A stretch of 64,000 bases of DNA from Eledone cirrhosa (lineage: Eukaryota), in contig OZ024740.1 in NCBI GenBank assembly GCA_964016885.1, positions 238,018,001-238,082,000 of the forward strand. Direction: 5' to 3'. Position 1 is the first letter of the stretch; the number at the start of each line of letters is the position of its first letter. Below, one piece after another: positions 994 through 54,927 of the stretch. Under the pieces are notes generated by a model, which saw nothing but the letters and a program-made list of their open reading frames with translations, had not been told where the DNA came from and did not search any database. A program made the translations under genes and the position numbers.

Positions 994-1518
994 TCCATAT
1001 TTATACAAATAATAATAATAAAAAGTGGAAGAAAAATTATTATTTTTTACATACATATTTTGAAAGGAGAGTTCATATCTCTGACCGTGTTTGTCCTTCT
1101 TTCTCTGTTAGTTGGCTAACAGAAGTTATATATATAACAGGGTTCTGTAGCTTGTGGAAACATTGTTGAATAGGAAACACAAATCTAAATAATTTTGAAA
1201 ATGAAACAATGCATTAGAAAGAACATTAAATTGCCAAAATTATATATATATATATAAAATTATATATATATATATATATATACAGACCGGGTCCGTAAAC
1301 AGCTAATCAACTTCTTCCGGGACTGGGGATTTAAAATCATCCTACAAACGTCCCTAACCCGAGTCAATTTCCTGGACGTTACCCTTAACCTCGAAAATGA
1401 TCTGTACTACCCATACAGGAAACGAAACGACAACCTGCACTACATCCTCCACCGCTCTAACCATCCTAGAAACATCACCAATAACCTGGTTAAAAACATC
1501 TCCCTCCGCATATCTCGT

Positions 1519-2343
1519 TTGTCCGCTAATGAGCAGATATTCGACGAACATGCGCCTCATTACAACCAGGCCCCCAAGCGGAGTGGCTTCCGGGAGGAAA
1601 TATCCTTTTATCCAGCTTCCCTTAGCGGAACCAGCAGGCGACACCGCCGCTCACGCAACGTAACGTGGTTCAATCCTCCCCATAATGCCGAGGTGGCAAC
1701 ACCTATCGGGAAAATCTTCTTTAGGCTCATCGAAAAACACTTCCCACTACAACACCGCTACCACAGCATAATCAACAAAAACACCATTAAACTCTCTTAC
1801 AGCACCACACCTAACTTCGCACAAAACATCTCCTCAAACAACAAAAAACTTAACCCCTATGGAAGAAACAACCTAGACATTAGTGGAGAGTCGACCAGGA
1901 GGTGTAACTACCCTGATAGATCTACGTGCCCCCTCAACAACAAATGCCGAGAAAGTAATGTGATCTACCAGTGCAACGTGAGGACGGACACCTCCAACAA
2001 AGCTTATATAGGATTAACCGCGTGTGACTTCAAGACCCGGCTCTACCAACACCGACATACTTTCCGAAACCCGGTCCGGCGACATGCCACTACACGTTCG
2101 GGCCACATCTGGGACCTCCAAGATAATAATATAACCTATGATCTCACTTGGAGCTTATTATCCAGAGCTAACTCTTACATGGGAGGACGCCGTCCGTGTA
2201 ACTTATGCTCAGAGGAAACATTACAAATGTTGTTTTCGAAGGACCAATTCCTAAACAAGAAAGACGAACTGGTAACCGCATGCAAACACAGATTGCATAG
2301 GACTTACATCGCCTTCAAACCCCATAACGACCCGCGTGGGTAG
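1519..2343 (+). pseudogene. PLE ORF fragment: RT thumb region and GIY-YIG endonuclease
   Basis: ORF track 274 aa; similar to ORFs at 13264-15131, 41159-42442 and 9178-9395. Confidence 0.88.
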
Positions 2344-2987
2344 ACAAGGGCTGATACCCCTTCCCCCCACTTGCCGAATAAGTTAGGGGAAACCCCAGCT
2401 TACATAGGTAGATGTATATCTTTTCTTTTCCTCTATGTCTTCTTCTTTCCCCTGTCTCATCCCATCACTTCCTTCCACTCCCTATTTTCTTCCTCGTCTG
2501 CTCTTCCCCTTTCGCCTACTCCGATGCAGCCCATTGGGCCTCTGTAGTGTCAGTTCCTCCACCCCTGTAATTTTAAGATAGAATTGGCCGAATACGTTTT
2601 ACTAACTACTTATAACAGATGTGTTAGACCCCTTTAATTTTGTATCAGTTTTGTTACTACTCCATTTCTACAATTTTTTTTTATTCATTTCTCACTATCT
2701 AATTTTATATATATTTTTTTATTTCTTTCTATTATCTTTTATTGTCTCCTACTATCATTCGAATTACCTATTCTATAACCTCCCTCCTCCATTTCATACA
2801 CTATCCTTAGAATCTGCTGTATACATATCACTTTCAACGCTTTACCGCTCCACGCACTCCCCTATTGTTCTACAGGCAAGTTCAGCCACCCCTACCTCCC
2901 ACCAAATCCCATGATAGACTTATTTGTGTTTACAACAAATGTTAACCAATCCTCTTGACAACTACAATCTTCCCAAATAAGGAAGTA

Positions 2988-3083
2988 CTCCCTTGACAAG
3001 TGCGGCTATTTATTCACCAGGCTAAAATTTCTAATTTAGTCCAGAAATAGCCGTCGAAACGGCTTGAGCTCTGCCGTCGGGGT
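2988..3083 (+). ncRNA. Type I hammerhead, U3-A8 variant with extended stem II
   Basis: TTGACAA 2993-2999; stem II cggctattt/aaatagccg; GAAA 3056-3059; stem III acggc/gccgt; GTC 3076-3078; stem I tccc/gggg. Confidence 0.85.
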
Positions 3084-3106
3084 CATACATTTTCCTATAT
3101 ATATAC

Positions 3107-3183
<77 letters not shown>

Positions 3184-3189
<6 letters not shown>

Positions 3190-4609
3190 GAAATACGTCC
3201 TTTCACGCACAAGGCGCCAAGGTACGCATGTATTGTCCAACCAAGTGCCAGTGTGGTTCAATGGCGGGTTAATAAATTAACGAGCCAGAACAAATATAAA
3301 CAAGGTTTAGTAAATAATGAAAAAGTTTCAAAATAAATTTTTAAAAATTGACTTTACCTCCTTTTGCCTCTATCTTTACTACGGCCCTTGATAAACCTGT
3401 TCTACATCATCCACTCTCATCCCAGGAACAGTCTTTGATAGCGCTAGTTTGTGATTTAAATTCAGGAATTTTATATTCTTTGAATGAAAAGAACCTTCTG
3501 ACGAGAATCTCTCTTTGCAACGAAGGCCGTATGGCCTACGTTTTATTTTTGGGATTCGAAACCGATCGGTAAAGGTAACTATAGTAGGTAAAGTCAATTT
3601 TTTAAAATTTATTTTGAAACTTTTTCATTATTTACTAAACCTTGTTTATATTTGTTCTGGCTCGTTAATTTATTAACCCGCCATTGAACCACACTGGCAC
3701 TTGGTTGGACAATACATGCGTACCTTGGCGCCTTGTGCGTGAAAGGACGTATTTCATATTACTACTACCTCCACAAACGTTGAGAACAAACCGGGTCATT
3801 CCGACTGCTGCTGATAACAGCGGTGGCTAGTTTGACCTACCTCCTTTTGCCTCTATCTTTACTACGGCCCTTGATAAACCTGTTCTACATCATCCACTCT
3901 CATCCCAGGAACAGTCTTTGATAGCGCTAGTTTGTGATTTAAATTCAGGAATTTTATATTCTTTGAATGAAAAGAACCTTCTGACGAGAATCTCTCTTTG
4001 CAACGAAGGCCGTATGGCCTACGTTTTATTTTTGGGATTCGAAACCGATCGGTAAAGGTAACTATAGTAGGTAAAGTCAATTTTTTAAAATTTATTTTGA
4101 AACTTTTTCATTATTTACTAAACCTTGTTTATATTTGTTCTGGCTCGTTAATTTATTAACCCGCCATTGAACCACACTGGCACTTGGTTGGACAATACAT
4201 GCGTACCTTGGCGCCTTGTGCGTGAAAGGACGTATTTCATATTACTACTACCTCCACAAACGTTGAGAACAAACCGGGTCATTCCGACTGCTGCTGATAA
4301 CAGCGGTGGCTAGTTTGACCTACCTCCTTTTGCCTCTATCTTTACTACGGCCCTTGATAAACCTGTTCTACATCATCCACTCTCATCCCAGGAACAGTCT
4401 TTGATAGCGCTAGTTTGTGATTTAAATTCAGGAATTTTATATTCTTTGAATGAAAAGAACCTTCTGACGAGAATCTCTCTTTGCAACGAAGGCCGTATGG
4501 CCTACGTTTTATTTTTGGGATTCGAAACCGATCGGTAAAGGTAACTATAGTAGGTAAAGTCAATTTTTTAAAATTTATTTTGAAACTTTTTCATTATTTA
4601 CTAAACCTT

Positions 4610-4618
<9 letters not shown>
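3184..4618 (+). repeat. 483-bp HHR-containing tandem repeat (~2.6 copies) preceded by an inverted partial copy
   Basis: Period 483 (identical ORFs at 3379, 3862, 4345); 3184-3359 is the reverse complement of ~3586-3761; (TA)n on both sides. Confidence 0.92.
3493..3576 (+). ncRNA. Type I hammerhead (repeated at 3976-4059 and 4459-4542)
   Basis: acctt-CTGACGA-gaatct...ggattc-GAAA-ccgatcgg-TA-aaggt; palindromic stem III, GUA cleavage triplet. Confidence 0.9.
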
Positions 4619-4646
<28 letters not shown>

Positions 4647-4653
<7 letters not shown>

Positions 4654-5424
4654 AGTTGATATGCCCACAGGTACTAAGTACCCCCGGAAATATATAGGTT
4701 GTCTATGATACAGGGTTGTTCAATGGTATTAATTTGACATACCAGAACTATAATATTGAGATAAGCAGAAAAAGCAAAATTCAAACAATTTTTTAAAATA
4801 AATTAAAAAATATAATTTAAATATTTACCTACTCCAGTTGCTTTTACCGATCGGTTTCACTTCACTGAAAATCCATGGGGACTTCCAATGGAAAAGTTTA
4901 GTTCATCAGAAAGCATTTTCCCTTCCTAGGACTAAAAGTCCCAGGAACGGCAAAATATATTGCCATCTGCCAGCTAGCACAGGATCGAATGGGGCCGAAA
5001 ATTTGACCTGTACATGAACCAGTCCGTAGAAAAAGCGGAAGTAAACATAGACGTGTTGTCTACTTCACGACTAAAAATAGCAGCCAAACAGAACAGATTT
5101 GTTCTCTACATAACGGAGAATATTAAAAGAAGTTAATATGCCCACAGGTACTAAGTACCCCTGGAAATATATAGGTTGTCTATGATACAGGGTTGTTCAA
5201 TGGTATTAATTTGACATACCAGAACTATAATATTGAGATAAGCAGAACAAGCAAAATTCAAACAATTTTTTAAAATAAATTAAAAAACATAATTTAAATA
5301 TTTACCTACTCCAGATGCTTTTACCGATCGGTTTCACTTTACAAAAGATTGGAAATCCATGGGGACTTCCAATGGAAAAATTTAGTTCATCAGAAAGCAT
5401 TTTCCCTTCCTAGGACTAAAAGTC

Positions 5425-5427
<3 letters not shown>
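4647..5427 (-). repeat. 477-bp HHR-containing tandem repeat (~1.6 copies)
   Basis: atgcccacaggtactaag at 4661 and 5138; flanked by (TA)n; one HHR per unit on the minus strand. Confidence 0.88.
4840..4914 (-). ncRNA. Type I hammerhead (second copy 5317-5398)
   Basis: Minus strand: gcttt-CTGATGA-act...agt-GAAA-ccgatcgg-TA-aaagc. Confidence 0.87.
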
Positions 5428-5468
<41 letters not shown>

Positions 5469-5470
<2 letters not shown>

Positions 5471-6186
5471 ATAAGTATGTATACGTACATACATATATGT
5501 ATACAGACGTATGTGCGTATGGGTTTACCGAACATTTATTATAATGCTCTGGTTTGTAAATAAATAAACACCCCGAATTATTAGCCGTACAGTGTTCGGC
5601 AACCATCGTTGTCATTTTGTTCAACACTGACAAAGGAACGATGAACTAGTTTCTAGCTTATTAGCTGCCATCAGCACCGTATACCTTCCTGTCAGTTGAT
5701 TGAACGTTTGAAAGTATATACTTTCCGTATGCATATTAACGGCTGAAATTTCATTTTTTCCATTTATCGTTTTGGGTACGCCCGGCCGACTAACTCATTC
5801 GATATGCAAATTAGGTTGCTCAGCCGTTAATATGCATAAGGAAAGTATATACTTTCAAACGTTCAATCAATTGACAGGAGGGTATACGGTGCTGATGACA
5901 GCTATTAAGCTAGAAACTAGTTCATCGTTCCTTTGTCAGTGTTGAACAAATAGGGCAGCGATGGTTGCCGAGCACTCTACGGCTAATAATTCGGGCTGTT
6001 TGTTTACAAACAAACCGAGCATTATAATAAATGTTCGGTAAACCCATACGCACATATATATACGTGTGCATGTATGTATATACATACTACTGTACGCTGT
6101 ATACATATATGTATGTACGTATACATACTTACATTTAAGTATCAGCCGTACTAAGAGTGAGAAATGAAATTTCATTTTTTCCATTT
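5469..6186. mobile_element. ~420-bp HHR family, fold-back insertion (copy A)
   Basis: 5469-5745 is inverted relative to the plus segment 5746-6186, which begins and ends with aaatttcattttttccatttat. HHR at 5887-5927 (+): cggtg-CTGATGA-cagctattaagcta-GAAA-ctag-TT-catcg; mutated copy 5639-5679 (-). Confidence 0.85.
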
Positions 6187-6195
6187 ATATATATA

Positions 6196-6260
<65 letters not shown>

Positions 6261-6289
6261 GCATATATGTGAAGAGGTGCCAGGAAATC

Positions 6290-6420
6290 CCAGTTGTAGG
6301 AAGCTGCAGTAGAGGTAGCTGATCTCAGGTGGAGAGATGCTATGCTGAAAAAGACCCATCCAACCCATGCAAGCATGGAAAAATAGATGTAAAAACGATA
6401 ATGATGATGATAGTGATGAT
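6290..6420 (+). mobile_element. RTE LINE 3'-end fragment
   Basis: aagacccatccaacccatgcaagcatggaaaaatagatgtaaaaacgat plus (ATG)n tail; resembles the 3' end of the RTE at 24536. Confidence 0.6.
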
Positions 6421-6430
6421 ATATATATGC

Positions 6431-6516
<86 letters not shown>

Positions 6517-6520
<4 letters not shown>

Positions 6521-8050
6521 ATAAAATGACAGGAGGCTGGACTTGTGTAAATCCTTGAAAGGTTTATTATACTATGATCATTTCAATGACCGGGTTCCGT
6601 ATGAATCCGGTGATATCATCAGGTATTCGAAATATAATAAATGAATGTAATAGATAAAATCCATGGGGCTGTAAATCATAGACCCGAGGACGACCGACCA
6701 TCTAGCATCTTCCACTTTAGCCGGTCGCCCTCAAGTGCTGGCTATTCGGTCTACTTGAGGCTATCTGGTGAGGGGGCTAAAGCTTATAGTGTGCTACTAA
6801 CCTACCGGTCAAATAGAAGAAAAACAGAAAGGAAGAGGAAGATAAGTCAGCGTTAATATCATGCTACAAGAAAAAAGACAGAAAGAAAGAGGAAGAAAAG
6901 GAAAGAAGAAGAAAAGTCAGCGTTAATGTCAAGCTACGAGGAGAAAGACAGAAAGAAAGAGGAAGAAAAGTCCGGCCAGGAATGCAGCTACAGTCAGGCC
7001 AGGAATGCAGCGAAAACAATTTTTTCTAAAGGACCCGTATCTTAACAGAGGTATATATTATAACAGAGGTAAATATAGTGGGGGTCTGCATGGTATAATG
7101 TGTGAGCAGAAGATTGGAACGTTAAATTTTTGTTTAGATTTATAGGATGAAGTTACAAAAATTTAAGATTAACATTATAAAATTAAAGAAATTAGAAAAT
7201 TGAAAATTAAACAGTTTAATATTTTTAAGGTTTTGGGTTGCGAGGTTTAGGTAAAGTTGCCAGGTTTAGGTAAAGAAAGAGTCTTTTATGAAGAAACTTT
7301 AATTGTATTATAGAGTAAAGATTATGTCCTTGTTTAGCAGTCAAACAGCATGCAGCGACTGCAGACCCCAGCCAGCCCAGCCTAACCGCGTGTCAGCCAT
7401 TCCGAGTGAGATCGCCTAGCGAAAGATATGGAAATCAATTTTTCTAAGCACTCTAGGAATGTATATCAGGCTTCAGGTGTGCTAGTGGGAAGTCAGCCCT
7501 CGTCGTTAGGCCATCCTAGTACCAAACCAGTACTATTAATTTACCCAGGAGGGGTATTTGTTTACGTAGAGGGAGGCATGATACATCTAATAGTTATGAT
7601 TAGGTCTATAATTTAAAGGTACTATATGGCGGCCAAAAGCCGGCTGCGCGCCGGGCCCCCGGGGCGGATGATACCGCTCGAGTAATTTCATTTGGCGACC
7701 GGCTAAAGTGGAAGATGTTAGATGGTCGGTCGTCCTCCGGTCTATGATTTTCAGCCCCATGGATTTTATCTATTACATTCATTTATTATATTTCGAATAC
7801 CTGATGATATCACCGGATTCATACAGAACCCGGTCATTAAAATGATCATAGTATAATAAACCTTTCAAGGATTTACACAAATCCAGCCACCTGTCATTTT
7901 ATTATAATATTTAACTCCGTACTAGCACCACCAACTACAAAAACGAAGACGGTTGTACTGCTTTACGTTGAGTACTCTCCATATTATTACATTAAGATTG
8001 ACCATACGGAATTGACCACCTCTATCCAGTGGTGAACCTTCAAACCTGAA

Positions 8051-8055
<5 letters not shown>
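6517..8055. mobile_element. Decayed PLE-derived element with ~213-bp inverted pLTRs
   Basis: 6517-6729 and 7694-7906 are inverted repeats, each with CTGATGA...GAAC-CCGG-TC (6585-6627 -, 7801-7835 +); minus-strand remnant NTIKVS resembles PLE NTIKISYS. Confidence 0.7.
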
Positions 8056-8100
<45 letters not shown>

Positions 8101-8102
<2 letters not shown>

Positions 8103-9623
8103 AACGAGTAGGACCCCGACGGCTGAGCTCAAGCCGTTTCGACGGCTAATTCTGGACTAAATGAAAATTTTTATCCTGGTATATGAATAGCCGAGCTTCT
8201 CAGGGGGTAATTCCATATATGGTAAAAGTGATTGTCACAAGGATTGGTCAAAAGTTTGTTGTTGAGACACATAATTCTATCATGGCAATTTGTGGAAGGA
8301 AGGGGTAGCTGAACCTGCCAGTAGAAGAAAGAGGGAGAGGGAGTGGGGGAAACCCAGTCGTGCGCTGATAGTGCCAACTACAGCAGGGCAGGAGGTCAAG
8401 CAAGTATACTAAGGAGGGGGAGGGGGAGGAAGTCGAAACAATAAGTAAATCAATATGGAGTAAAAATATAGAGAGTATATCTTACGGTGACAGGTCAACA
8501 AGTGGGGGGCCAAAACACTAAAGAAACTACCACGAAATAATAATTCAGAGTCCCGAAACTAATACGAAATAAATGTTTCTACCCTGGGAACAAAGCCAGC
8601 AACCACCCAGTGCAAAAAATAAACTAATACGAAATAATAATTCAGAATCCCGAAAATGAATACTAATACTATCTCTAAGGGTGCCGCTACGATACAAAAA
8701 TTCTAGTGCAAACTACATAAATGCTCGTACGAGGTATATGAAAATTTTGATACGGAAAATTAATTCAGAATCCCCCCCCCCCCAAAAAAAAATACTGATA
8801 TACAAGAAATTAAAGCAGAGATACCACTAAGAAATGTAGAGAGCACGGAAATAGGGCAGCCATCGGATAAGAAAGCAAGTATCTGGGGTCTATCACATCT
8901 GCTATAAAAAGCGGAGTCGGCCAATTCTATCATAGAATAGGGGATGGGGGTGGGGGTACTGAGGCTACAAAGGACCGAGGGGCTGCCTCGGGCGGGCGAG
9001 AAAATGAAAAGGACGACGACAAAGAAGGAGGACTGGGGAGGAAGGACTAGGAAGGGATGGGGGAAGAAGGAAATATAGAGGAAACGATAAAAAGATATAA
9101 AAAAAGATCTTACGTCTACCTTTGCAAGCAGGGGTTACCCATTACAAAGTCGGCAAGTGGGGTGTTACAGCCCATGTCTACCCCCCCCCCAGGTCATTAT
9201 GGAGTTTGAGGGCGAGGTAAGTCCTACGCAATCTGTGTTTGCATGCAGTTACCAGTTCGTCTTTCTTGTTTAGGAGTTGGTCCGTCGAAAACAACATTTG
9301 TAAAGTTTCCTCCGAGCATAAATTGCACGGACGGCGTCCTCCCGTGTAAGAGTTTGCTCCGGACAGTAAGCTCCAAGTGAGATCATAGGTAATATGACCA
9401 ATCCTTGTGACAATCACTTTTACCATATATGGAATTACCCCCTGAGAAGCTCGGCTATTCATATACCAGGATAAAAATTTTCATTTAGTCCAGAATTAGC
9501 CGTCGAAACGGCTTGAGCTCAGCCGTCGGGGTCCTACTCGTTCCTATTACCCACTCTACTACCCTAAGTATTGAGTACTTTGGTGCGTTATGGTCCACCT
9601 GGTTCCTTACCACATTTCCTTCG

Positions 9624-9625
<2 letters not shown>
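8101..9625 (-). mobile_element. 5'-truncated PLE (same family as 1284-3090) with inverted pLTR
   Basis: 9178-9395 encodes the GIY-YIG C-terminus nearly identical to the end of ORF 1519-2343; 8101-8250 is the reverse complement of ~9396-9544; HHRs at 8113-8208 (-) and 9437-9532 (+) with core CTGAGAA. Confidence 0.88.
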
Positions 9626-9677
<52 letters not shown>

Positions 9678-9689
9678 ATGTGTGTGTTA

Positions 9690-10516
9690 TATATGTATAT
9701 ATGTGTGTATATTTATATATATATATATAATATGTATATATACACACACATATATATATGTGTATTTGGTGTATACGTTCGTATGTGTGCGGGTATATGT
9801 GTCATGCCTGGGATACGGACGTGTGCGCGTGTTTATGTGTATGTGCATGTATATGTACGTACGGCGTGCGTTTTCGTGTATGCATGTGTATGTACATATA
9901 TAGATGTGTGTATGTATATATATATAATTGTTTAAATCTTAAATATTATTACTTTTGTGATTTTAATAACCTCTGTCGTTTTCGTTAAACTAATTTATTT
10001 GCATTGGTGGATTGGCAGTATCGGTAGAGTGTTGGACGCCATGCTTTCTAGCATAGTTACGTCCCTTTACGATCTGAGTTCAAATCCTGCCGAGGTTGAC
10101 TTTGCCTTTCATCCTTACGGGGTCGATAAAATAAAGTACCAGTAATGCACTGGGTAATTGCTGGCCTTGTGCCTAAAGTAGAAACAATTATTCTTAATTC
10201 CGAAGGTGAGAATCATTCGGTTTCCTAAATAGAATATTAGTCTTATGACTCCATTTATACCATAAACGTGGTTTTGTCTTTGCGTGTATTTGTTCTCATC
10301 ACTCTACATAACGACGTATTATGTTTGCTTTTTTCTGTTCATTGCCAGGGAACGTCTTCACGAACCAAAGTATCATCTTCCTGTTTTCCTTCGGTTGCAA
10401 CGTTTTTCGAAATATGTACTTCTGTGTCCACAGATTCATTTTTTTAGTTTCAGAAGATCCCCTTAAGGGTGAAAGCAGCAATTCTTTGCTTAAACTTTAA
10501 TCTGTTATTTTAATAA

Positions 10517-10520
<4 letters not shown>
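9690..10520 (+). mobile_element. 3' UTR/pLTR fragment of the PLE family at 13229-16108, interrupted by a SINE
   Basis: 10190-10515 resembles 15640-16105; carries the CAGAAGA hammerhead-like motif at 10446-10496. Confidence 0.7.
10006..10192 (+). mobile_element. tRNA-derived SINE with Meta-like domain
   Basis: tggcagtatcggtag A-box-like, gagttcaaatcc B box, gccgaggttgactttgcctttcatccttacggggtcgataaaataaagtaccag core. Confidence 0.85.
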
Positions 10521-10587
<67 letters not shown>

Positions 10588-10591
<4 letters not shown>

Positions 10592-11327
10592 TATGTACAC
10601 GTACATACATATATGTATACGGACGCACAGTAGTATGTATATATATATACATACATGCACACATACATATATGTACGTATGGATTCACCGAACATTTATT
10701 ACAATGCTCGGTGTGTTTGTAAACAAACATCCCGTATTAAGCCGTAGTGTCCAGCAACCATCGTTGCTCGTTTGTTCAATACTGACAAAGGAACGCTGTA
10801 CTAGTTTCAAGCTTATTAGCTATCATCAGCAACGTATACCTTCCTGCCAGATTGTTGAACGTATATACTTACCTTATGCATATTAACGGCTGAGTAGCCC
10901 AATTTGCATATCGAGTGGGTTAATCGGCCGGGTGCACCGAAAACGATAAACGGAAAAAATGAAACGAAATTTCATTTCCCACTCTTAGTACGTATATACG
11001 TTCAACAATCTGCAGGAAGGTATACGTTGCTGATGATAGCTAATAAGCTTGAAACTAGTACAGCGTTCCTTTGTCAGTGTTGAACAAACGAGCAACGATG
11101 GTTGCTGGACACTACGGCTTAATACGGGATGTTTGTTTACAAACACACCGAGCATTGTAATAAATGTTCGGTGAATCCATACGTACATATACGTATGTGT
11201 GCATGTATGTATATATATATACATACTACTGTGCGTCCGTATACATATATGTATGTACGTGTACATACTTATATTTAAGTAACAGCCGTACTAAGAGTGG
11301 GAAATGAAATTTCGTTTCATTTTTTCC

Positions 11328-11332
<5 letters not shown>
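10588..11332. mobile_element. ~420-bp HHR family, fold-back insertion (copy B)
   Basis: Minus segment 10588-10990 and plus segment 10991-11332; HHRs 10794-10834 (-) and 11025-11065 (+): cgttg-CTGATGA-tagctaataagctt-GAAA-ctag-TA-cagcg. Confidence 0.87.
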
Positions 11333-11357
<25 letters not shown>

Positions 11358-11361
<4 letters not shown>

Positions 11362-13169
11362 ACTAGAAATTGATTAACATATAAATATACATGAATAATC
11401 ACAGGAGATAATTTTTACACCCGTGTAACCACGCATAGCTAGTTTGGGTAATAATTAAATTTATACCTTTAAGTATGATTAACCTTCATTGTATATATCC
11501 CATTAAAGAAATATATTTCACCAATTAATCAGATGGTAAGTCACGGAAAGTGGATATTATTGGATTGTCAACAAGGAAGAATAATAATGTCCAGCTATCC
11601 ATCCTTACACAACGAGTTTAAATCCTCATCTGGCCGCTACCACGTGTTGCGTCTACACATGTGAAACGAAACTGCTGTCATGTGTAGACGCAACACGTGG
11701 TAGCGACCAGATGAGGATTTAAACTCGTTGTGTAAGGATGGATAGCTGGACATTATTATTCTTCCTTGTTGACAATCCAATAATATCCACTTTCCGTGAC
11801 TTACCATCTGATTAATTGGTGAAATATATTTCTTTAATGGGATATATACAAGGAAGGTTAATCATACTTAAAGGTATAAATTTAATTATTACCCAAACTA
11901 GCTATGCGTGGTTACACGCGTGTAAAAATTATCTCCTGTGATTATTCATGTATATTTATATGTTAATCAATTTCTAGTTATTATAAAATGCTCGGATTTA
12001 TCTTTGAGCTTATTTCCAGGTGATATGGCGCATGCCATTATGACATGACACCCGCAATTTCGATTTAGATTAAATTCATTTAATTTATCTTAATTTTGGA
12101 TATAGATATATATATACGGCTCCTTAATTGTAGAGCTATTTCTGTTGAAGAGAATTTGACTGCTATTTCTAGTTGTCGAATACCTATTCACACCACTGAA
12201 ACGAAACTGCTGTCATGTGTAGACGCAACACGTGGTAGCGGCCAGATGAGGATTTAAACTCGTTGTGTAAGGATGGATAGCTGGACATTATTATTCTTCC
12301 TTGTTGACAATCCAATAATATCCACTTTCCGTGACTTACCATCTGATTAATTGGTGAAATATATTTCTTTAATGGGATATATACAATGAAGGTTAATCAT
12401 ACTTAAAGGTATAAATTTAATTATTACCCAAACTAGCTATGCGTGGTTACACGCGTGTAAAAATTATCTCCTGTGATTATTCATGTATATTTATATGTTA
12501 ATCAATTTCTAGTTATTATAAAATGCTCGGATTTATCTTTGAGCTTCTTTCCAGGTGATATGGCGCATGCCATTATGACATGACACCCACAATTTCGATT
12601 TAGATTAAATTCATTTAATTTATCTTAATTTTGGATATAGATATATATATACGGCTCCTTAATTGTAGAGCTATTTCTGTTGAAGAGAATTTGACTGCTA
12701 TTTCTAGTTGTCGAATACCTATTCACGCCACTGAAACGAAACTGCTGTCATGTGTAGACGCAACACGTGGTAGCGGCCAGATGAGGATTTAAACTCGTTG
12801 TGTAAGGATGGATAGCTGGACATTATTATTCTTCCTTGTTGACAATCCAATAATATCCACTTTCCGTGACTTACCATCTGATTAATTGGTGAAATATATT
12901 TCTTTAATGGGATATATACAATGAAGGTTAATCATACTTAAAGGTATAAATTTAATTATTACCCAAACTAGCTATGCGTGGTTACACGCGTGTAAAAATT
13001 ATCTCCTGTGATTATTCATGTATATTTATATGTTAATCAATTTCTAGTTATTATAAAATGCTCTGGATTTATCTTTGAGCTTATTTCCAGGTGATATGGC
13101 GCATGCCATTATGACATGACACCCACAATTTCGATTTAGATTAAATTCATTTAATTTATCTTAATTTTG

Positions 13170-13170
<1 letters not shown>
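11358..13170 (+). repeat. 535-bp HHR-containing tandem repeat (~2.8 copies) preceded by an inverted partial copy
   Basis: tgaaacgaaactgctgtcatg at 11662, 12197, 12732; 11358-11660 is inverted; flanked by (TA)n. Confidence 0.92.
11761..11856 (+). ncRNA. Type I hammerhead, U3-A8 variant (also from 12296, 12831 and 11484-11580 on minus)
   Basis: cttccttg-TTGACAA-tccaat...attggt-GAAA-tatatttc-tttaat-gggatata-TA-caaggaag; 8-bp stem I, 9-bp stem III, AUA triplet. Confidence 0.88.
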
Positions 13171-13228
<58 letters not shown>

Positions 13229-16108
13229 TTATTAAACTAACAGATTAAAGTTTAAGCAAAGAATTGCTGCTTTCACCCTTAAGGGGATCTTCTGAAACTA
13301 AAATTCGTTCTATTAAGGATTCTAATGCGGTGCACGTCCATTCCGACAAAACTGGCAACCTATATCAAGTGGAGCACAGTACTTACCAGCAACTACTACA
13401 TAATGCTGTAACTAAGGATTACCGTAAAACTAATCGGTGCGTCATCAATGAAATCAACGATGCTGGGTTTAAAATCACCTCTGATCTCAACATCCTGGAC
13501 CGGAACGAACCTCTGGACCCTATTTCTCCCCACTTTTCCCTGAAAGATCACAAATCCAATTTTCCGAACAACCCCTCTATTCGGCTTATTAACCCTACGA
13601 AGTCCGATTTAGGTAGACTTAGTAAAAGGATTCTGGATAGAATTATACCTGAAATTAGAAGTTTGGCCCCTCTTGCACTGTGGAACAATTCTTTCGCGGT
13701 GATTGATTGGTTCAGCGGCATATGCAACAAGGAACATTGCCGTTTTATCCAATTCGACATCAACAATTACTACTCCTCTATCACTTTACCACTTCTCCTT
13801 AGAGCTATCAATTTCGCTAAAACACTCACAGTGGTTAAGGATTTCGAAGTTGATGTCATCCTCAATGCCCGTAAATCGGTGATTAATTTCGACGACTCTA
13901 TTTGGATTAAAAAATCCAATAGTACTCCATTCGACGTGAGTATGTGCGCCAGCGATTCTGCGGAGGTTACTGATCTTATCGGCCTTTTCCTTCTTTTCTC
14001 TATCAAGGACGAATTCCCCAACGCGGGCGGTGGTTTGTACCGTGATGATGGTCTTTTGACCATGACTAAGTGCGGACCTCGTGCTTGCGACAGGTTCAGA
14101 AAAGGACTCACAGCCTTCTTTAAAGGCTTCAACTTCTCTATACAGGTTGAGGCCAATCTCTCGGTCGTTAATTACCTCGACGTTACCCTCAATTTATCGA
14201 ATGGGTTGTATTACCCGTATAGAAAGCCGAATGATACGCTTAATTACATAAGTAAGCATTCCAACCATCCTGCCTGCATAACCAAGAACCTGGTAAGAAA
14301 CGTTTCGTTGAGGCTTTCCCGTCTATCTACTAACGAGCATATTTTCAACGACCATTCCACTTATTACAATGAAGCTCTTGCTCGGAGTGGATTTGTCGAT
14401 AAGGTAGCATATACAGAGTACGAAAATAGACCTAGAAGAAATAGATCCCGTCGCATTTGTTGGTATAACCCACCATATACTATGGAGGTGGCCACACCAT
14501 TAGCTAAGATCTTTCTTTCCCTTATTACGAAGCATTTTCCCCCTACACATAAATATAGTAAAATTTTTAATAGAAATACTATTAAAATTTCTTACTCTAC
14601 GACTCCTACCATTGCACATAACATCACAGCTTCAAATTTAGCTAAACTACCTAGCCGTAGGAACACGTGCAACCCTGTAGTTAGTACTAACTGTAATTGT
14701 AGGAATCGGGTTGATTGTCCCTATACGGGAAATGCCTCTCTAGTAACATTGTCTACAAATGTAAGGTTGAAACACCCACGTCCCGTAGGGCCTACATTGG
14801 GTTAACCGCCAATAGATTCAAGCAGCGTCTTTACATGCATAGCCATTCTTTTCGTTACCCTCTAAGAAGGAATATGACGTCACTTTCAGCTTATATCTGG
14901 AGTCTGAAAGACAACCACACCCAATTTAAGTTACACTGGGAGATCCTAGCTAGGGCTAGATCGTATAACGGAAATAAAAGACCATATGACCTCTGCGCCG
15001 CTGAGGCTCTGGAAATACTCTACGCCACAGACCACATCTTAAACAAAAAATCTGAGGCAATTTCGGCTTGTAAACATAAATTGCACAAAACTTTCCTGTA
15101 TTACAGCCCCACATTATACCCTAACGTATAGTACGATCTATACGTGGTTATTTTACGTCTTGATGTGGTAGCTAAGTATACGTTTTGTTTATACCATTAC
15201 TTATTTGCATAGTTAAGTATATATTACCTGTATGTTTTGTGTAGGTACGTATACTTTCTCATACGTATATTTGATTGATTATGTTATGGCGTATACATTT
15301 TTTATATATTCTGGTACATATGGTTTGGTTATGTGTATACGGGAGTTTTGCGTCTGCGTGAGTATGCAGGTTCGTACGTATGTTGGGTGTGTGTATATGT
15401 GTACTTCATGTTTTGGTTGACTTACGTCTCCGAACATTTATGTATTTACATGTAGGTATGTGTTTGCGCTTGTTATATACGTATTTATTTATTTATATAC
15501 GTTTATACACATATTTATATGTGCGTGGTTTTGTATACCTATGGCAAGTGTTTTGCGTATGCTTGTGTATGTACGTATTTGCATGCGTGTATGCATTTAT
15601 TTAATTTCAATTACCTCTGTATTGTATTTATTTACTTTATTCTTAACTCTGAAGCGGAGATTCATTCGGATTCTTAGTTAGAATTTAGTCTACGACTTCA
15701 GCTATACCATTTATGTGGTTTTGTCTTTGCGTGCAATTGTTCTCCACGCTCCACATATGACGTATTATCTTCGTTTTTTCCGTTCATTGCCAGAGAACGT
15801 CTCTATGAACCACCTAAGAGAACATTAGTCTACGACTTCTTTTACACCATAAACGTGGTTCTGTCTTTGCGCGTAATTGTTTTTCACCGCTCCTATTAAT
15901 GACGTATTATATTCGTTTTTTCCCGTTCTTTGCCAGCGAACGTTCCCACGAACCAAAGTATCGTCTTCCTGTCTTCCTCCGGTTGCAACTTTTTTTTAAA
16001 TATCCACTTCTGTGTTTACAGATTGACTTTGTTAGTTTCAGAATATCCCGTTAAGGGTGAAAGCAGCGATTCTTTGCTTAAACTTTAATCTGTTATTTTA
16101 ATAAATAT
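13229..16108 (+). mobile_element. Penelope-like element, 5'-truncated, with short inverted pLTR at the 5' end
   Basis: RT motifs FDINNYYSSI and GLYRDDGL, WYNPP; GIY-YIG (IVY...AYIG) in frameshifted ORF 14715-15131; 13229-13303 is an inverted copy of the 3' pLTR end. Confidence 0.92.
13304..15131 (+). pseudogene. PLE RT + GIY-YIG ORF with one frameshift near 14720
   Basis: ORF track 13264-14805 and 14715-15131 overlap in different frames at the Cys linker. Confidence 0.88.
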
Positions 16109-16226
16109 AAGTTGAAATAGAATGAAAACGAAATTTCATTTCTCACTCTTAGTACGGCACTTACTTAAATGTAAGTATGTGTGTATACGTACATACATAT
16201 ATGTATACAGACGTACAGTAGCATGC

Positions 16227-16257
<31 letters not shown>

Positions 16258-16727
16258 TATACATACAGGTACACATACATATATGCACGTATCAGTTTAG
16301 CGAACGCTTATTATAACGCCGCTTTGTTCGTTTGTAAACAAACTGAACAGCCTGAATTTTTATGCCGTACGGTGTTAAGGCAACCACGTCACTTTTTTGT
16401 TCAACTTGTACATCGTTCCTGTGTCAGTGTTGAACAAAAAGGTGACGTGGTTGCCTTAACACCGTACGGCATAAAAATTCAGGCTGTTCAGTTTGTTTAC
16501 AAACGAACAAAGTGGCGTTATAATAAGCGTCCGCTAAACTGATACGTGCATATATGTATGTGTATATATGTATATATATATATATATATTGTTATACTTT
16601 GGGAGGGTCATGTTGCCAATAAGAAACACACGCACCAGTTGCTTTCACTTCAATTTATTATATATAACAATATCGGTTTCAACACACGATTTCAGATAAA
16701 GAATCTTGCTAAACAAATTCAGAAACG

Positions 16728-23554: not shown

Positions 23555-23725
23555 GAATGATAGGGACCCCAGTCTCTATCATCTCATTTCTACAGCTGAG
23601 TAAACTGGAGCAATGTGAAATAAAGTGCCTTGCTCAAGGAAACAGCACATCACCCGGGGTGAGAATTGAACTCACAATCTTTCGATTGCAAGGCCAATGC
23701 TCTAACTACTAAGCCATGTGCCTCC
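23555..23725 (-). mobile_element. tRNA-derived SINE with CORE-like domain
   Basis: Minus strand: tggcttagtagttagagc (A box), gagttcaattc (B box), gtttccttgagcaaggcactt (CORE-like). Confidence 0.7.
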
Positions 23726-29909: not shown

Positions 29910-35280
<5,371 letters not shown>

Positions 35281-35296
35281 TATATATATATATATA

Positions 35297-35412
35297 TAAG
35301 TTGAAAAAAAATGAAAACAAAATTTCATTTCTCACTCTTAGTATGGCACTTACTTAAATGTAAGTATGTATGTATACGTACATACATATATGTATACAGA
35401 CGTACAGTAGCA

Positions 35413-35470
<58 letters not shown>

Positions 35471-36011
35471 TACACAAATGCATACAGGTACACATACATA
35501 TATGCACGCATCAGTTTAGCCGGCGTTTATTATAACGCCGGCCGCTTTGTTCGTTTGTTTGTCAACTGTACGTCTGTATACATATATGTATGTACGTATA
35601 CATACATACTTACATTTAAGTAAGTGCCATACTAAGAGTGAGAAATGAAATTTCGTTTTCATTTTTTTTCAACTTATCGTTTTCGGTATGCCTGACCGAT
35701 TTAACTCACTCAATATGCAAATTAGGCTGCTCAGCCGTTAATTTTCATAAGGAAAGTATATACTTTCGAACGTTCAACTATCTGGCAGATGGGTAAACGG
35801 TGCTGATGATAGCTAACAAGCTTGAAACTAGTACATCGTTCCTGTGTCAGTGTTGAACAAAAAGGTGACGTGGTTGCCTTAACACCGTATGGCATAAATT
35901 CAGGCTGTTCGCTTTGTTGACAAACAAACGAACAAAGCGGCCGGCGTTATAATAAACGCCGGCTAAACTGATGCGTGCATATATGTATGTGTACCTGTAT
36001 GCATATGTGTA

Positions 36012-44323: not shown

Positions 44324-46620
44324 AGCGAGATTACTGGGTGTGTGAATGTAACAAAACGAGACAATGTTTGTGTATATAATATTTAATTAACGGTAGATAG
44401 AATACTTGACATGTCAAAGATAGATGTCGAAATTACTGGTTGTATGAATGTAACAAAACGAGACAATGTTTGTGTATATAATATTTAATTAACGGTAGAT
44501 AGAATACTTGACATGTCAAAGATAGATGTTAGAATGAAACAAAGTTAGTAGTTACCGTTTTGATTGCCAGGCAAACGCGGCTGGCAGAGGGCGCCTGGCT
44601 AAGGCCAGGCGCCTGTTGGCCAAATTAATGGCAGAGCCAAATGAGAAGACTCTTGACCTGGTGCCGAAAAGGCAAAGAGAGAAAGGAAGCTTAAAGTTGT
44701 TAGTTTTATAGGGCTCTGACCGGAAGTTGCAGAAAGGGTTCCACTTCCCGTCTAGATCCCAATCAAAACAAGGGAGACAACCGCTACATAACCTCCCGCC
44801 AGAATTTTAGTGTATAAAAATCGAAATGAAAATATGTAGCAAGTTGGCGAGAATGTTGTAACAGGCATGAAAATTACGACCAAAGAATGTTTGGAAAAAT
44901 CAATGATAGATATCAAGGTAGCCAACCGCTCTTGGCCAGAGAACGACTGGACATCCATCTATCCATCACCCAAAGATACAATGCAAAAAAGTAAAAGTAA
45001 TAGAAGAGCTCAAAGTTCAAAATATAGTTCACAGGTGTGCAATCACATGACAGCAGGAAAGAAAGTGTGTTCCAGAGAATGAATGCAGGTGGTTTCTGTT
45101 CTGTGGTATATCGTGAAATTTCAAACCTCCGAATGGATTTTCTCACAGGAAGAGTGCTGCAAAAATAAATTCTCTGGCTTTGGTGAAGCTGTGTTGATGT
45201 ATTGCTGTTGCTGTTATATTGCTGTTGCTGCTGCTGTTGTCTCGCTGAGTGAGCGTATTCGGTGTTTAAATTCACAGTAAAAAAAATTTTTTTTAGAAAA
45301 AAATGAGTTGCGCAAAGTGCTAGAAATAGCAGCCGAAGTTGATGGTCGATGTTGAGAATGCGTTGACCTGGAAGGGTCAAGAGGCCAGCGACCAGAGAAA
45401 TAAGCATTCTTAATAAATGCGCGGTTATCAACGGTAAATTTACATTGTAAATTTATAAACCGGCAAATAGAAGAATATAGCTTAAGGCTGAAGAATCCCT
45501 GGTGATAAATGGCGTGCGGCTGTCTGTGAGTAGAGACATCTCAGTGAATCGAGAATTTATGCTGCCTACACGTGCCAATACAAGGTTGAAAAAAAAATAT
45601 TTCTAACGCGCGAGAAAATGATAGTGCAATTTTGAAAGTGACAATGATGAAAAAGAAAGGCTTCAATCAGCATAATTATAGGTGTGAACTTTGGAAAAAA
45701 ACAAAAAACTTGAACGATGAAGAAAACGAAGAACAAAAGGCAATGGTTCATCGAAAATAAATGTTCCTGTTGAAATGTTTTTTAAAGAATATCAAATTTC
45801 TTTTTTTTTGTTTGTGTTTTGAAAGAGTTCGTTGTAAGAAACGAGAAACATATATATATATCGTGAAATGTTTTTTTTTGTTTTGAAAGTGTTCGTTGTA
45901 AGAAACGAGAAACATATATATATATATTGGTGAAATGCGACAGTTAATTGATGCGTGAGAGAAAAAGTATGTCTGTGCGAATTCCACATGTGCGTGTGTG
46001 CGTGTCCTTGAGTATTTTCATAGTTTGTCGCTAAATTTGCTGTGTATTCGTAATGTTACTCACAAAACCAGACGTGCTATTTTTTCTTTTTTTGGGGGGT
46101 GACCCTTATAGCGATGAACGGCTGCGTGTTCGTATCACGTCAGGGTTACCAATATAGCGAGATTACTGGGTGTGTGAATGTAACAAAACGAGACAATGTT
46201 TGTGTATATAATATTTAATTAACGGTAGATAGAATACTTGACATGTCAAAGATAGATGTCGAAATTACTGGTTGTATGAATGTAACAAAACGAGACAATG
46301 TTTGTGTATATAATATTTAATTAACGGTAGATAGAATACTTGACATGTCAAAGATAGATGTTAGAATGAAACAAAGTTAGTAGTTACCGTTTTGATTGCC
46401 AGGCAAACGCGGCTGGCAGAGGGCGCCTGGCTAAGGCCAGGCGCCTGTTGGCCAAATTAATGGCAGAGCCAAATGAGAAGACTCTTGACCTGGTGCCGAA
46501 AAGGCAAAGAGAGAAAGGAAGCTTAAAGTTGTTAGTTTTATAGGGCTCTGACCGGAAGTTGCAGAAAGGGTTCCACTTCCCGTCTAGATCCCAATCAAAA
46601 CAAGGGAGACAACCGCTACA
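44321..46620 (-). mobile_element. Non-autonomous LTR retrotransposon (Gypsy-like), 468-bp LTRs
   Basis: LTRs 44321-44788 and 46153-46620 look identical (TGTAGCG...CGCTATA on minus); PBS TGGTAACCCTGACGTGATACGAAC; PPT-like ctggcgggaggtta; TSD TATC. Confidence 0.92.
46128..46151 (-). promoter_or_regulatory. Primer-binding site complementary to the 3' end of tRNA-Trp
   Basis: Immediately inside the 5' LTR; close match to the complement of metazoan tRNA-Trp 3' end (recalled as TGGTGACCCCGACGTGAT). Confidence 0.8.
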
Positions 46621-46629
46621 TATCTATCT

Positions 46630-49600
46630 GGGGTCACCTGAGGGCTTCCTGTCCTAAACTAATGAACCAAAAAAAGGCTCTTCTGCCGACACCCATCAAA
46701 ACAACACAACCACCAACACCACCACAACAACAACACCAACACACAAAAATAACCACAACAAACACAGTCCCACCCAACCCCACTCCACCTAAAACCACTG
46801 CAAAATCACATACAGACACAACAGCTCCCCAAGACATACCCCTCCCCAATCACACAGACGATACAACAGATGAGGCTATCTCGCCATCACCCAGTGAAGA
46901 CGAGGGAGAACCCCATCGCTCGAAAAGAAAGAAAAGACATCACAAAAGCAAAAAACCAGCAAACACTACCACAAACATACAACCACCAACGCAAACAACA
47001 AAAATATCACAAACAAAACCCCCACCTCCTGAAAACAAAATACCTACAACAAAACGAAAGCACACACAAGAACTACAGACAAAAACAAACACAACACAAG
47101 AAAATTACACTTACACTTACATAAACACTGAAAACAAAACACTAATGGAGACCATCACGAACGACCCTTCGGTTTTCACCGAAGGGAAAACTTTCGCCCA
47201 CTCTATAAAAAATAGCAAAAAACTGAACCTAAAACTGATTAGGGTCCCTATACAAACTTATAGGTCCCTAAAAGAAACATTTGAGAAGGATGTGGGGAAT
47301 TCCTGCGTGAAACCACTCAACCGCGTCCTTCTCAAATGCCTCCCCACCCCAGACACCCCCATTCCACCAGACCCCACCCCACCAAACATCTGCGTCCCCA
47401 CCCCGCCGGAAACCACCACCCATCCAGACAACCCCTCCAACACCCCCATGGAAATCGTGCGGCCTGGTCCCCAGGAGGCGAAGGGTGAGTGATCTCTTTT
47501 CCTCTTTTAACTTTTCAGCACCAACATGGCCAATATAAGAGTTGGATGTGTGAACGTACGCGGCCTGGGGATGCCCTGGAAACAGGGCAAACTCTTAAAC
47601 GACCTCAGGTCACACAGTTTGGATGTGGTAGCCATTTGCGAGTCCAGGATCCACGGCGAGCGACAGCTGGCCCCCATCTTCGATGACTTTGAGATCTACG
47701 CATCTCTCTGTCAACCGGGGGGTGGGGGCGGAGTTGCCGTTTTGCTGCGGAAACACCTGGGCCTCGTAACACAGACGGTACATCTGGACCCGGAGGGTCG
47801 ACTGGTGGTCCTAGACGTTGACGGTAGTGAAGGTGGAGCCTTCAGGCTGGTGGCCGCATATGCCCCATCCGGGACACCGCGGCCAGACTTCTTCAAACGT
47901 CTAGAGACTTTTCTGGGAACGTCCCGCTCCTTGCTTTTAGTGGGGGACTGGAATGGAATCCTAGATGCACGTTGGGACTATGTGGGAGCATGTCCCGACA
48001 AAGGGGGGTGTAACAGCCTCAAACAGTTAATCGACCGATTTGACCTGGCCGATAGATATCGACTAGATTTTCCGACTGCGCCAATGTGGACGTGGAGTAA
48101 TCGTAGCGGAACATCTAGATCGTACCTAGATAGGGTTCTAGTTAGAAATAAGGATAGGGACATGTTAAGCTGTCCACAAATGTTCATGGTTGCCTATTCA
48201 GATCACAAACTAGTGACCTGCATGGCCAACCTTGATAGAACCCATAGACAAGGACCCGGCTACTGGAAGCTGAACTTGTCGTTACCGACAAGCAAAGCCT
48301 ACAGTAGACGGATTAGCACTTTAGTTAAACAGCACTTGACAGGGGCCATTGTCAACAACAGATGGTGGTACTCTCTCAAGAGGGCAGTTAGATTAGACTC
48401 GATAGTTTTTAGTAAAGAATTAGCGTTAGATAGAAATAGAACCGAGAAGGAACTGGTAGATAAAGTAGAAGAGGCAATTAGAAGTGGCAACGTAGCCAGC
48501 GTGCTAGCAACGAGAACGGCCTTGGACCAGTTCTTCGACGCAAAGCACGAGGGCTGCGTTGTCAGAAACAAAATACGTGCTCTGGGAAACGAGGGAGCCA
48601 AAGCTGTTAGCTGGGCCCGGGTGACGGAGGCAAAAAGTGGCAACAAGTCCACGATTCGGTCTTTGAAGGACCAAAACGGACGCGTGATACGTGAGCCGAA
48701 GCAGATGTGTGCGGCTTTTCAGCGGCACTTTGCTCAGCTGTTCGGGGGGAGCGGCACGCCGGGAGAGGCTATGGATTTCGGTCCATACCTCGACGGCCTA
48801 CCGCGACTCTCGGACAGTGAGGCGAAGTTCTGCGAAAAGCCGATTTCAGCCACTGAGATAGGGGACGCGCTGAGCCAATGCGGCAAACGCAAATCTCCAG
48901 GTCTCGACGGTCTACCCTACGAATTTTACGTAGCAATGCCGGACTTATTCTCCGGTCTCCTGGAAGCGGTCTACTGCAACTGGCAACAGAACAGGAGAAT
49001 TCCCAGTTCTGTAACCGGGGGCGTGGTCACACTAATCAGGAAGGACGAGAATAAGGGGGATGACATAGGCAACTTCCGGCCCATAACTCTGCTAAACACA
49101 GAGTTACAGATTTTGGCCAAGGTGTTGGCAAAGAGGCTGGCGCTTGTCGTCGAGAACCTGGTGGGAGAAACGCAGACATGCGCGATCCCGACCAGGTCCA
49201 TACACGACAACCTCCACCTCATGCGATACATCATAGAGAGGGTAGGGTGTTAACCCGGCTTCGGTGGGGCCCTGATCAACTTGGATCAGTCTAAGGCTTT
49301 CGATAGGGTTGACCATCGTTACCTGGATGCGGTGCTCGAGGCGGCAGGCTTCGGACCCGTGTTCAGGGGCTGGATTGCTGCAATGCACAACAGCAACATC
49401 TGCTCAAGGGTCAAGGTGAACGGTTACCTCTCGGAGCCGTTCCATATTACGCGATCCATTCGACAGGGATGCCCTCTCTCCTCCCTTCTGTACGTACTGA
49501 CTCTCGAGCCACTACTGCGGAAGCTGGAGCTATTGCAGGGCATCCCTCTGGAACCGGGACTGCGGAAAGCGGCGTCGGTCTACGCCGACGACGTGACAGT

Positions 49601-51199: not shown

Positions 51200-51200
<1 letters not shown>
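46630..51200 (+). mobile_element. Tx1/L1-clade LINE copy 1 (5'-truncated in ORF1)
   Basis: ORF1 tail to 47492; ORF2 47526-50963; AATAAA at 51191; bounded by (TATC)n. Confidence 0.93.
47526..50963 (+). pseudogene. ORF2: AP endonuclease + RT + CCHC finger with a single in-frame TAA (49251-49253)
   Basis: NVRGL, GDWN, YLDR, SDH, YWKLN, SPGLDG, FRPITLLN, DQSKAFDRV, QGCPLS, YADD, CPRC...HAFIHC; both ORF halves are in the same frame. Confidence 0.93.
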
Positions 51201-51247
<47 letters not shown>

Positions 51248-52546: not shown

Positions 52547-52580
<34 letters not shown>

Positions 52581-52591
52581 CGACGACGACG

Positions 52592-52630
<39 letters not shown>

Positions 52631-54900: not shown

Positions 54901-54927
54901 TATCTATCTATCTATATCTATCTATCT

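What the first reader, a model, noticed from the sequence alone, without database searches (positions are those of the whole stretch)
3184..13170. Candidate retrozyme-like circular-RNA system: four non-coding hammerhead repeat families clustered with PLEs
Seen: within 10 kb there are four families of short units (483, 477, ~420 and 535 bp) with no credible ORF. Each has one well-formed type I HHR per unit, sits in (TA)n, and occurs as head-to-tail multimers and/or with an inverted partial copy at one end. The PLEs in this window show the same inversion pattern. Established: tandem type I HHR repeats (non-LTR retrozymes) in some animals yield monomeric circular RNAs, and PLE pLTRs carry HHRs. 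Inference: these are non-autonomous RNA replicons processed by self-cleavage and re-integrated by PLE RT/GIY-YIG. I cannot confirm whether they are already described for this lineage.
Basis: partly seen in the sequence, partly recalled or inferred. Interest (0 to 1): 0.88.

Follow-up and report, generated by a model that had tools for sequence, protein, structure and literature searches.

The report
Four Penelope-inserted hammerhead retrozyme families
Four families of short non-coding repeats, each carrying a hammerhead motif predicted to cut its own RNA, sit here in TA-rich DNA and show the insertion pattern of Penelope-type jumping genes, which likely copied them from small RNA circles; they are new examples of a known kind of element.

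Summary
Four non-coding hammerhead families lie in (TA)n (A 483 bp; B 477 here, ~488 elsewhere; C 422; D 535), each spread genome-wide. All three predicted cleavage sites fit; D's core is the known U3-A8 variant. None of 60 position-sampled copies is fused to a PLE ORF. Each family ends at two fixed sites downstream of the cleavage site, and head-to-head arms pair one short with one long end (A: 39 of 42 pairs), as a coding PLE of this genome does (7 of 8). A-arrays are born uniform (0.35% divergence within arms, 7.3% between loci; up to 10 units per arm), which favours reverse transcription round a unit-length circle; a few older arrays look like mixed or linear templates. The cluster is a (TA)n insertion hot spot, not a system. 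Cleavage, circles and the partner PLE are untested; no RNA run was listed. Class known (non-LTR retrozymes), PLE link already proposed in print, and this scan already recorded the same two-armed model for other families in this genome, including C. New members of a known kind with good mechanistic evidence. Interest 0.5.

The parts
3184..3359 (-). Family A inverted arm (unit positions 15-190 after cleavage), long end at 3184 in (TA)n
3355..4617 (+). Family A forward arm, 2.61 x 483-bp units, short end (position 80) at 4617; 5-nt overlap with the inverted arm
3493..3576 (+). A type I hammerhead (core CUGACGA at 3498, palindromic helix III, predicted cleavage after 3571); repeated with cores at 3981 and 4464
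4647..5427 (-). Family B, one arm of 1.62 units, long end at 4647; hammerhead cores at 5393 and 4909, cleavage at 5322 and 4845; shares helix III and the following hairpin with A (73% over 79 nt)
5466..6188 (.). Family C, older subfamily, two-armed insertion (short end left, long end right); cores at 5892 (+) and 5674 (-, A9G)
6521..8053 (.).
8101..9627 (.). 5'-truncated coding PLE-type piece (ORF C-terminus on minus strand, 9411-9184) with inverted arm and ~83-nt tail; own hammerhead-like motifs at 8203 (-) and 9442 (+)
10585..11333 (.). Family C, young subfamily: minus arm 0.97 unit (short end 216), plus arm 0.83 unit (long end 275); cleavage at 10799 (-) and after 11060 (+)
11355..11661 (-). 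Family D inverted arm, short end (137 after cleavage); hammerhead core at 11571
11662..13187 (+). Family D forward arm, 2.85 x 535-bp units, long end (~268); cores at 11769, 12304, 12839
11760..11857 (+). D type I hammerhead with U3-A8 core (UUGACAA), 9-bp helix I, 45-nt helix II region, 9-bp helix III; predicted cleavage after 11848
13227..16104 (.). Neighbouring coding PLE-type element P2, whose genome-wide copies serve as the in-genome control for the two-end rule

Best explanation
These are four families of non-coding tandem repeats with one type I hammerhead motif per unit whose insertions end at two fixed sites in (TA)n, and they were likely written into DNA by a Penelope-like reverse transcriptase-endonuclease that likely ran round a unit-length RNA circle predicted to arise by hammerhead self-cleavage. 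Shown by sequence: units, motifs, genome-wide spread, no attached ORF, two fixed ends, short+long pairing of head-to-head arms, uniform arrays. Inferred: transcription through two hammerheads, cleavage (A and C probably as dimers, their helix III being a perfect palindrome), ligation to a circle, a cut in (TA)n, priming from both target ends at two internal sites 59-131 nt apart helped by a few TA-like bases of homology, variable run length (0.1-10 turns), and joining of the two cDNAs by 1-6 nt microhomology. A minority of older insertions probably came from uncut linear, dimeric or two different templates, or were reshaped later.
For: Two fixed 3' ends per family, counted after the cleavage site: A 80 and 188-196; B ~92 and 195-204; C 216 and 275; D 137 and ~268. 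Head-to-head pairs in A: 28 of 28 short+long among best-scoring loci, 11 of 14 among position-sampled loci (1 short+short, 2 with a broken end). Coding PLE P2: 7 of 8 pairs with both ends visible are short+long, tail ~85 nt (read; 30 loci examined). Same footprint published for PLEs (PMC8557442, PMC3846280 passages) and two internal RT start sites on both strands shown in vitro (PMC11167929). Arm junctions overlap by 1-5 nt in 19 of 28, blunt in 6. Ends are not at the cleavage site, and arms cross it up to 10 times (L170: 12 units, 2 variable sites, 11% from the window unit). Position-sampled A: divergence 0.35% within arms, 0.64% between arms, 7.3% between loci. 367 of 395 shared variants are all-or-none within a locus; site 205 is monomorphic in 29 of 29 arrays against a mean of 8.0, maximum 18, in 10,000 pool shuffles; 13 of 18 locus-private fixed variants span two or more units of one arm; none of the 9 multi-copy partial variants is phase-matched between arms. 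Helix I is intact in 78-79 of 79 A loci; D keeps UUGACAA in 44 of 49 copies. Young PLE families with open frames exist in the genome.
Against: No RNA or cleavage data; Li et al. saw cleavage in only 1 of 9 predicted Xenopus dimers, and Frangieh et al. found uncut RNA to be the dominant PLE substrate in vitro. 'Private' is relative to 79 sampled A loci out of several hundred. Exceptions: D L064 shares four differences in the terminal unit of both arms (fits a linear or dimeric template, or conversion); D L054 and L063 have arms of different haplotype; C L096 and L105 show partly alternating units; the window's own D array carries a helix I change in 3 of 4 copies; A L159 has one unit differing at four or more sites, and L016 and L142 have a variant in two adjacent units only. 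The pairing rule is less clean in B, C, D (short+long in 3 of 6, 4 of 14, 10 of 16 best-scoring pairs, the rest mostly with rearranged ends, 1 long+long in C; 1 of 10 in position-sampled D, where a diverged subfamily breaks the alignments). Only 5 of 39 position-sampled A loci have an arm of two units or more. No partner PLE with a related pLTR was found.
Confidence: 0.7

Rival explanations
1. PLE machinery moves the units, but the template is an uncut linear read-through transcript of an already uniform source array; circles, if made, are by-products.
For: [quoted passage not shown] Phase-matched ends in D L064, mixed units in A L159 and the window's D array. Most A insertions are under two units.
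Against: It needs long uniform masters of many haplotypes and cannot itself fix a new mutation across all units; 84 distinct variants are fixed across copies in A and 0 of 9 multi-copy partial variants are phase-matched between arms.
Confidence: 0.18
2. The units are stranded pLTRs of truncated PLE insertions that later grew locally by unequal crossing-over (the route suggested by Li et al. 2026).
For: Same ends as PLEs; variants shared by two adjacent units in L016 and L142 and alternating units in L096 and L105 show that some local duplication or conversion happens.
Against: 0 of 60 position-sampled copies is joined to a PLE ORF; both arms can be multimeric and share variants; 99-100% identical arrays lie on many chromosomes; helices stay intact while subfamilies diverge.
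Confidence: 0.08
3. The four families and neighbouring PLEs form a co-located functional system, or the arrays are assembly artefacts.
For: All four families within 10 kb is denser than any of 60 control stretches (none held three other families).
Against: Each insertion has its own (TA)n-anchored ends and age; co-occurrence is common (12 of 60). Contigs of four public runs hold family A at high depth and show the short end running into (TA)n; arrays differ in structure from locus to locus.
Confidence: 0.04

Closest known systems
Metazoan non-LTR retrozymes (Cervera and de la Pena 2020, PMC7229834, parts 2-4 of 6 read; Li, Clavereau and Pollet 2026, 10.64898/2026.07.22.740005, parts 1-3 of 5 read)
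   Same: Non-coding, low-GC tandem units with one type I hammerhead each; dispersed monomers to multimers; coexist with PLEs; circle-templated RT and PLE mobilisation proposed there.
   Different: Units are 422-535 nt (170-400 in the 2020 paper, 51-972 in the preprint). The parts read do not describe two fixed ends, paired head-to-head arms or array-wide variant fixation. RNA circles are shown there and untested here.
EN+ Penelope-like elements and their non-autonomous derivatives (PMC8557442 and PMC3846280, passages read; PMC11167929, parts 1-3 of 4 read)
   Same: Inverted 5'-truncated copy, tail at one end only, microsatellite targets, internal start sites downstream of the hammerhead; non-autonomous Chlamys with multicopy head-to-tail insertions are mentioned.
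   Different: No ORF; tails of 59-131 nt rather than 30-40; both arms may hold several whole units; start sites share a few TA-like bases with the target, unlike the anole element in vitro.
U3-A8 core hammerheads (PMC3088659 and PMC4209133, passages read)
   Same: Family D core UUGACAA, with an extra nucleotide pair at the foot of helix II as in PLE hammerheads.
   Different: Long, non-palindromic helix III, so D is predicted to fold as a monomer; activity untested.

Membership tests
Non-LTR retrozyme | Tandem units each with a type I hammerhead (two or more consecutive) | tested here: met
   A, B, D in the window; C at L108, L096, L105
Non-LTR retrozyme | No protein coding | tested here: met
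   Longest ATG ORF 13-59 aa; no join to a PLE ORF in 60 of 60 loci
Non-LTR retrozyme | Short unit, GC below 50%, dispersed in the genome | tested here: met
   422-535 nt, GC 0.33-0.39; 1129 exact A and 513 exact D motif matches
Non-LTR retrozyme | Self-cleavage of the transcript | not testable with these tools
   Motif and helix conservation only
Non-LTR retrozyme | Monomeric linear and circular RNA in cells | not testable with these tools
   No RNA holder listed; indirect support from array uniformity
Non-LTR retrozyme | Lack of PBS and PPT; long TSD when present | not tested
   PBS/PPT not searched; a TSD cannot be read inside (TA)n
Autonomous Penelope-like element | RT plus GIY-YIG ORF between pLTRs | tested here: not met
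PLE-mobilised non-autonomous element | Inverted 5'-truncated arm with a tail at one end, microsatellite target | tested here: met
   A 39 of 42 pairs short+long; control PLE 7 of 8
PLE-mobilised non-autonomous element | Sequence kinship to the pLTR of a partner PLE | tested here: inconclusive
   No kinship to the two PLE families sampled (60 loci); the genome holds many more

The most novel reading that the evidence does not exclude
A Penelope-type enzyme pair binds one hammerhead-made RNA circle, primes from both ends of a cut (TA)n target at two different fixed sites on that circle, and both polymerases roll round it, so that retrozymes are true rolling-circle retrotransposons and every PLE 'tail plus inverted repeat' is the trace of such double priming.
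Probability: 0.55. Interest if true: 0.72.

Novelty: new member of a known kind. Interest (0 to 1): 0.5.

Why it matters
How retrozymes get back into DNA and how PLEs form tandem/inverted insertions are both open in the papers read. These families give exact start sites, a strict short+long arm rule and very young uniform arrays (family A), which turn the proposed circle-templated, PLE-driven route into a bench test with an existing in vitro PLE system. The kind of element is known, and the scan has noted the same model elsewhere in this genome, so the gain is added families (A, B, D had no look-alike note for A and D) and a quantified test, with its exceptions.

Tried and rejected
Reading D's hammerhead as a defective CUGAUUA (G8U) core: dropped when the true helix I and U3-A8 core were found. 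A-to-I editing scars: in family A, fixed A>G 13 versus T>C 14, partial 11 versus 18, no excess; B, C, D likewise inconclusive. Rfam: no useful hit, mostly microRNA models on TA-rich hairpins. RNA evidence: no RNA holder listed. Laying public contigs on the A inversion junction showed no bridging record among those listed (553 not shown), which proves nothing. Partner search: pLTRs and flanks of 60 loci of two PLE families hold A-D only as separate neighbours; L164, the one A copy lying 122 bp from a PLE ORF hit without a long TA tract, follows the finished short end of a separate P2 insertion. Pfam names RT and GIY-YIG only for the 30.6-34.1 kb ORF; P1, P2 and P4 had no hit, so their PLE status rests on mutual similarity, structure and motifs that I recognise from memory. 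Rows dropped: L145 (a B copy) from A counts; a separate insertion in L159 and one arm of L140, and unit positions 24-35, 73-83 and 170-196 (homopolymer edge, arm ends, divergent tail); L001-L010 were replaced by larger fetches. Position-sampled loci were picked by an exact motif, so conservation inside that motif is not evidence. PMC8490949 (passages) added nothing. Supplements were not read; the preprint's are closed and those of PMC7229834 may list cephalopod or other invertebrate units.
Full report
Setting. The window is C1:238018001-238082000 of a 3.0-Gb animal genome, rich in (TA)n. Earlier notes of this scan call it a cephalopod; I did not test that.

Observation. All four families are present as described. 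A hammerhead scan allowing C3-G8 or U3-A8 cores finds 9 complete type I motifs in 3184-13170 and none in 100 shuffles. A and B share a palindromic helix III and the hairpin after the cleavage site (73% over 79 nt), so they are related; C has a minimal palindromic helix III. D escaped the canonical scan: its core is UUGACAA, with a 9-bp helix I and a 9-bp helix III, kept in 44 of 49 copies, and positions 101-200 of the unit are among its best conserved. U3-A8 is a published, active covariant (PMC3088659, PMC4209133, passages). Three of four D copies in the window have a helix I mismatch. No unit has an ORF above 59 aa. Circular folds are more stable than 30 shuffles each (z -2.4 to -8.5).

Spread. 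DNA searches gave 1640, 2591, 2241 and 1980 first-look candidates for A, D, B, C, of which 40 each were scored. Exact motif counts: 1129 for A, 513 for D, 1371 for the stretch shared by A and B. I fetched 39 A, 20 B, 20 C and 20 D best-scoring loci and 60 loci taken by position along C1 (39 A, 1 B, 20 D). In none of the 60 is the unit joined to a PLE ORF: 24 have a PLE ORF hit within the stretch, 23 with a (TA)n tract between, and the last follows the finished end of a separate insertion.

Ends. Each family stops at two fixed sense-strand sites that run into (TA)n: A 80 and 188-196, B ~92 and 195-204, C 216 and 275, D 137 and ~268 nt after the cleavage site. The 5' ends vary. Where two arms meet head to head, one carries the short and one the long end: A 28 of 28 (best-scoring) and 11 of 14 (by position; 1 short+short, 2 broken); B 3 of 6, C 4 of 14, D 10 of 16, the rest mostly rearranged, 1 long+long in C; position-sampled D is not interpretable because a diverged subfamily breaks the alignments. 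Junctions overlap by 1-5 nt in 19 of 28 A cases. The coding element P2 next to the finding obeys the same rule in 7 of 8 copies with both ends in view, tail ~85 nt (the exception is the window's copy). This is the published PLE footprint (inverted 5'-truncated copy, tail at one end; PMC8557442, PMC3846280) and matches two internal RT start sites with extension of both target strands in vitro (PMC11167929). Public contigs independently show A's short end running into (TA)n. Each end has a few TA-like bases, but longer TA-like runs inside C are mostly not used as ends, so homology alone does not choose the sites.

Template. Insertions do not end at the cleavage site and arms cross it up to ten times. 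In position-sampled A, divergence is 0.35% within arms, 0.64% between arms and 7.3% between loci; L170 holds 12 units with two variable sites while lying 11% from the window unit. Over 79 A loci, 367 of 395 shared variants are all-or-none within a locus; site 205 is monomorphic in 29 of 29 arrays (pool shuffles: mean 8.0, maximum 18 of 10,000), which excludes jumping among pooled monomers; 13 of 18 private fixed variants span two or more units of an arm; none of 9 multi-copy partial variants is phase-matched between arms. A unit-length template read repeatedly from both target ends explains this most simply. Against it: D L064 has four differences shared by the terminal units of both arms, L054 and L063 have arms of different haplotype, C L096 and L105 partly alternate, A L159 is mixed, and L016 and L142 have two-unit variants. 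Linear, dimeric or two-molecule templates and later conversion therefore occur in a minority, and uniform linear masters are not excluded.

Selection. Helix I is intact in 78-79 of 79 A loci, and changes in helix II and in the hairpin after the cleavage site are mostly wobble-preserving; the CUGA-GA and UUGA-AA halves, which were not part of the sampling patterns, are nearly invariant. This suggests, but does not show, that cleavage matters for spread. No A-to-I signal was found in A.

Clustering. 12 of 60 control stretches of 8 kb hold another of the four families, 3 hold two, none three. The window is a dense (TA)n hot spot; a fifth hammerhead element (6521-8053) and PLE pieces lie among the four.

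Known and new. The class is that of non-LTR retrozymes (PMC7229834), and descent from PLE pLTRs is argued in a 2026 preprint (10.64898/2026.07.22.740005). Searches listed no paper on cephalopod retrozymes or on paired two-end, rolling-circle footprints; subscription papers, supplements and repeat databases were out of reach. I had reached the two-end and circle reading before the first look-up, which showed that the scan had already recorded it for 310-, 422- and 467-nt families in this genome, and U3-A8 cores for others; no look-alike note exists for A or D.

Verdict. Real; new members of a known kind; mechanism PLE-driven, probably circle-templated (0.7); cleavage, circles and partner untested. 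Interest 0.5.

Noticed in passing
window 6521-8053: Fifth hammerhead element, two-armed with short and long ends ~140 nt apart, ~4000 first-look candidates genome-wide, with an internal repeat of several hundred bases; whether it is a long retrozyme or a PLE 3' region is open.
   Followed up: partly
window 1258-3090 and 8101-9627: PLE-type pieces whose hammerhead-like motif has a long helix II and III; the copy at 2993 has the same UUGACAA core as family D, the copy at 9442 has C3 with A8. No sequence kinship to D was seen.
   Followed up: partly
window 30703-34131: Very young PLE family with RT and GIY-YIG (Pfam), 98-99% identical open-frame copies genome-wide; a candidate source of enzyme by age only.
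   Followed up: partly
window 30250-30560: Small two-armed hammerhead insertion (cores at 30302 minus and 30404 plus) in (TA)n, apparently another non-coding family.
   Followed up: no
family A unit positions 1-72 (window 3572-3643): The 3' strand of helix I can pair instead with positions 68-72, closing a hairpin that ends just before the short start site; conserved in 77-78 of 79 loci; might switch the ribozyme off in the circle.
   Followed up: partly
L096, L105 (family C): Partly alternating unit variants, as a hetero-dimeric circle or later duplication would give.
   Followed up: partly
window 16126-16590 and 35300-35980: More diverged C relatives with perfect-palindrome junctions and rearranged arms.
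   Followed up: no
window 46500-60400: Nested non-LTR retrotransposon ORFs (endonuclease-RT type by motif, recalled) and a tRNA-like match at 23659-23716.
   Followed up: no
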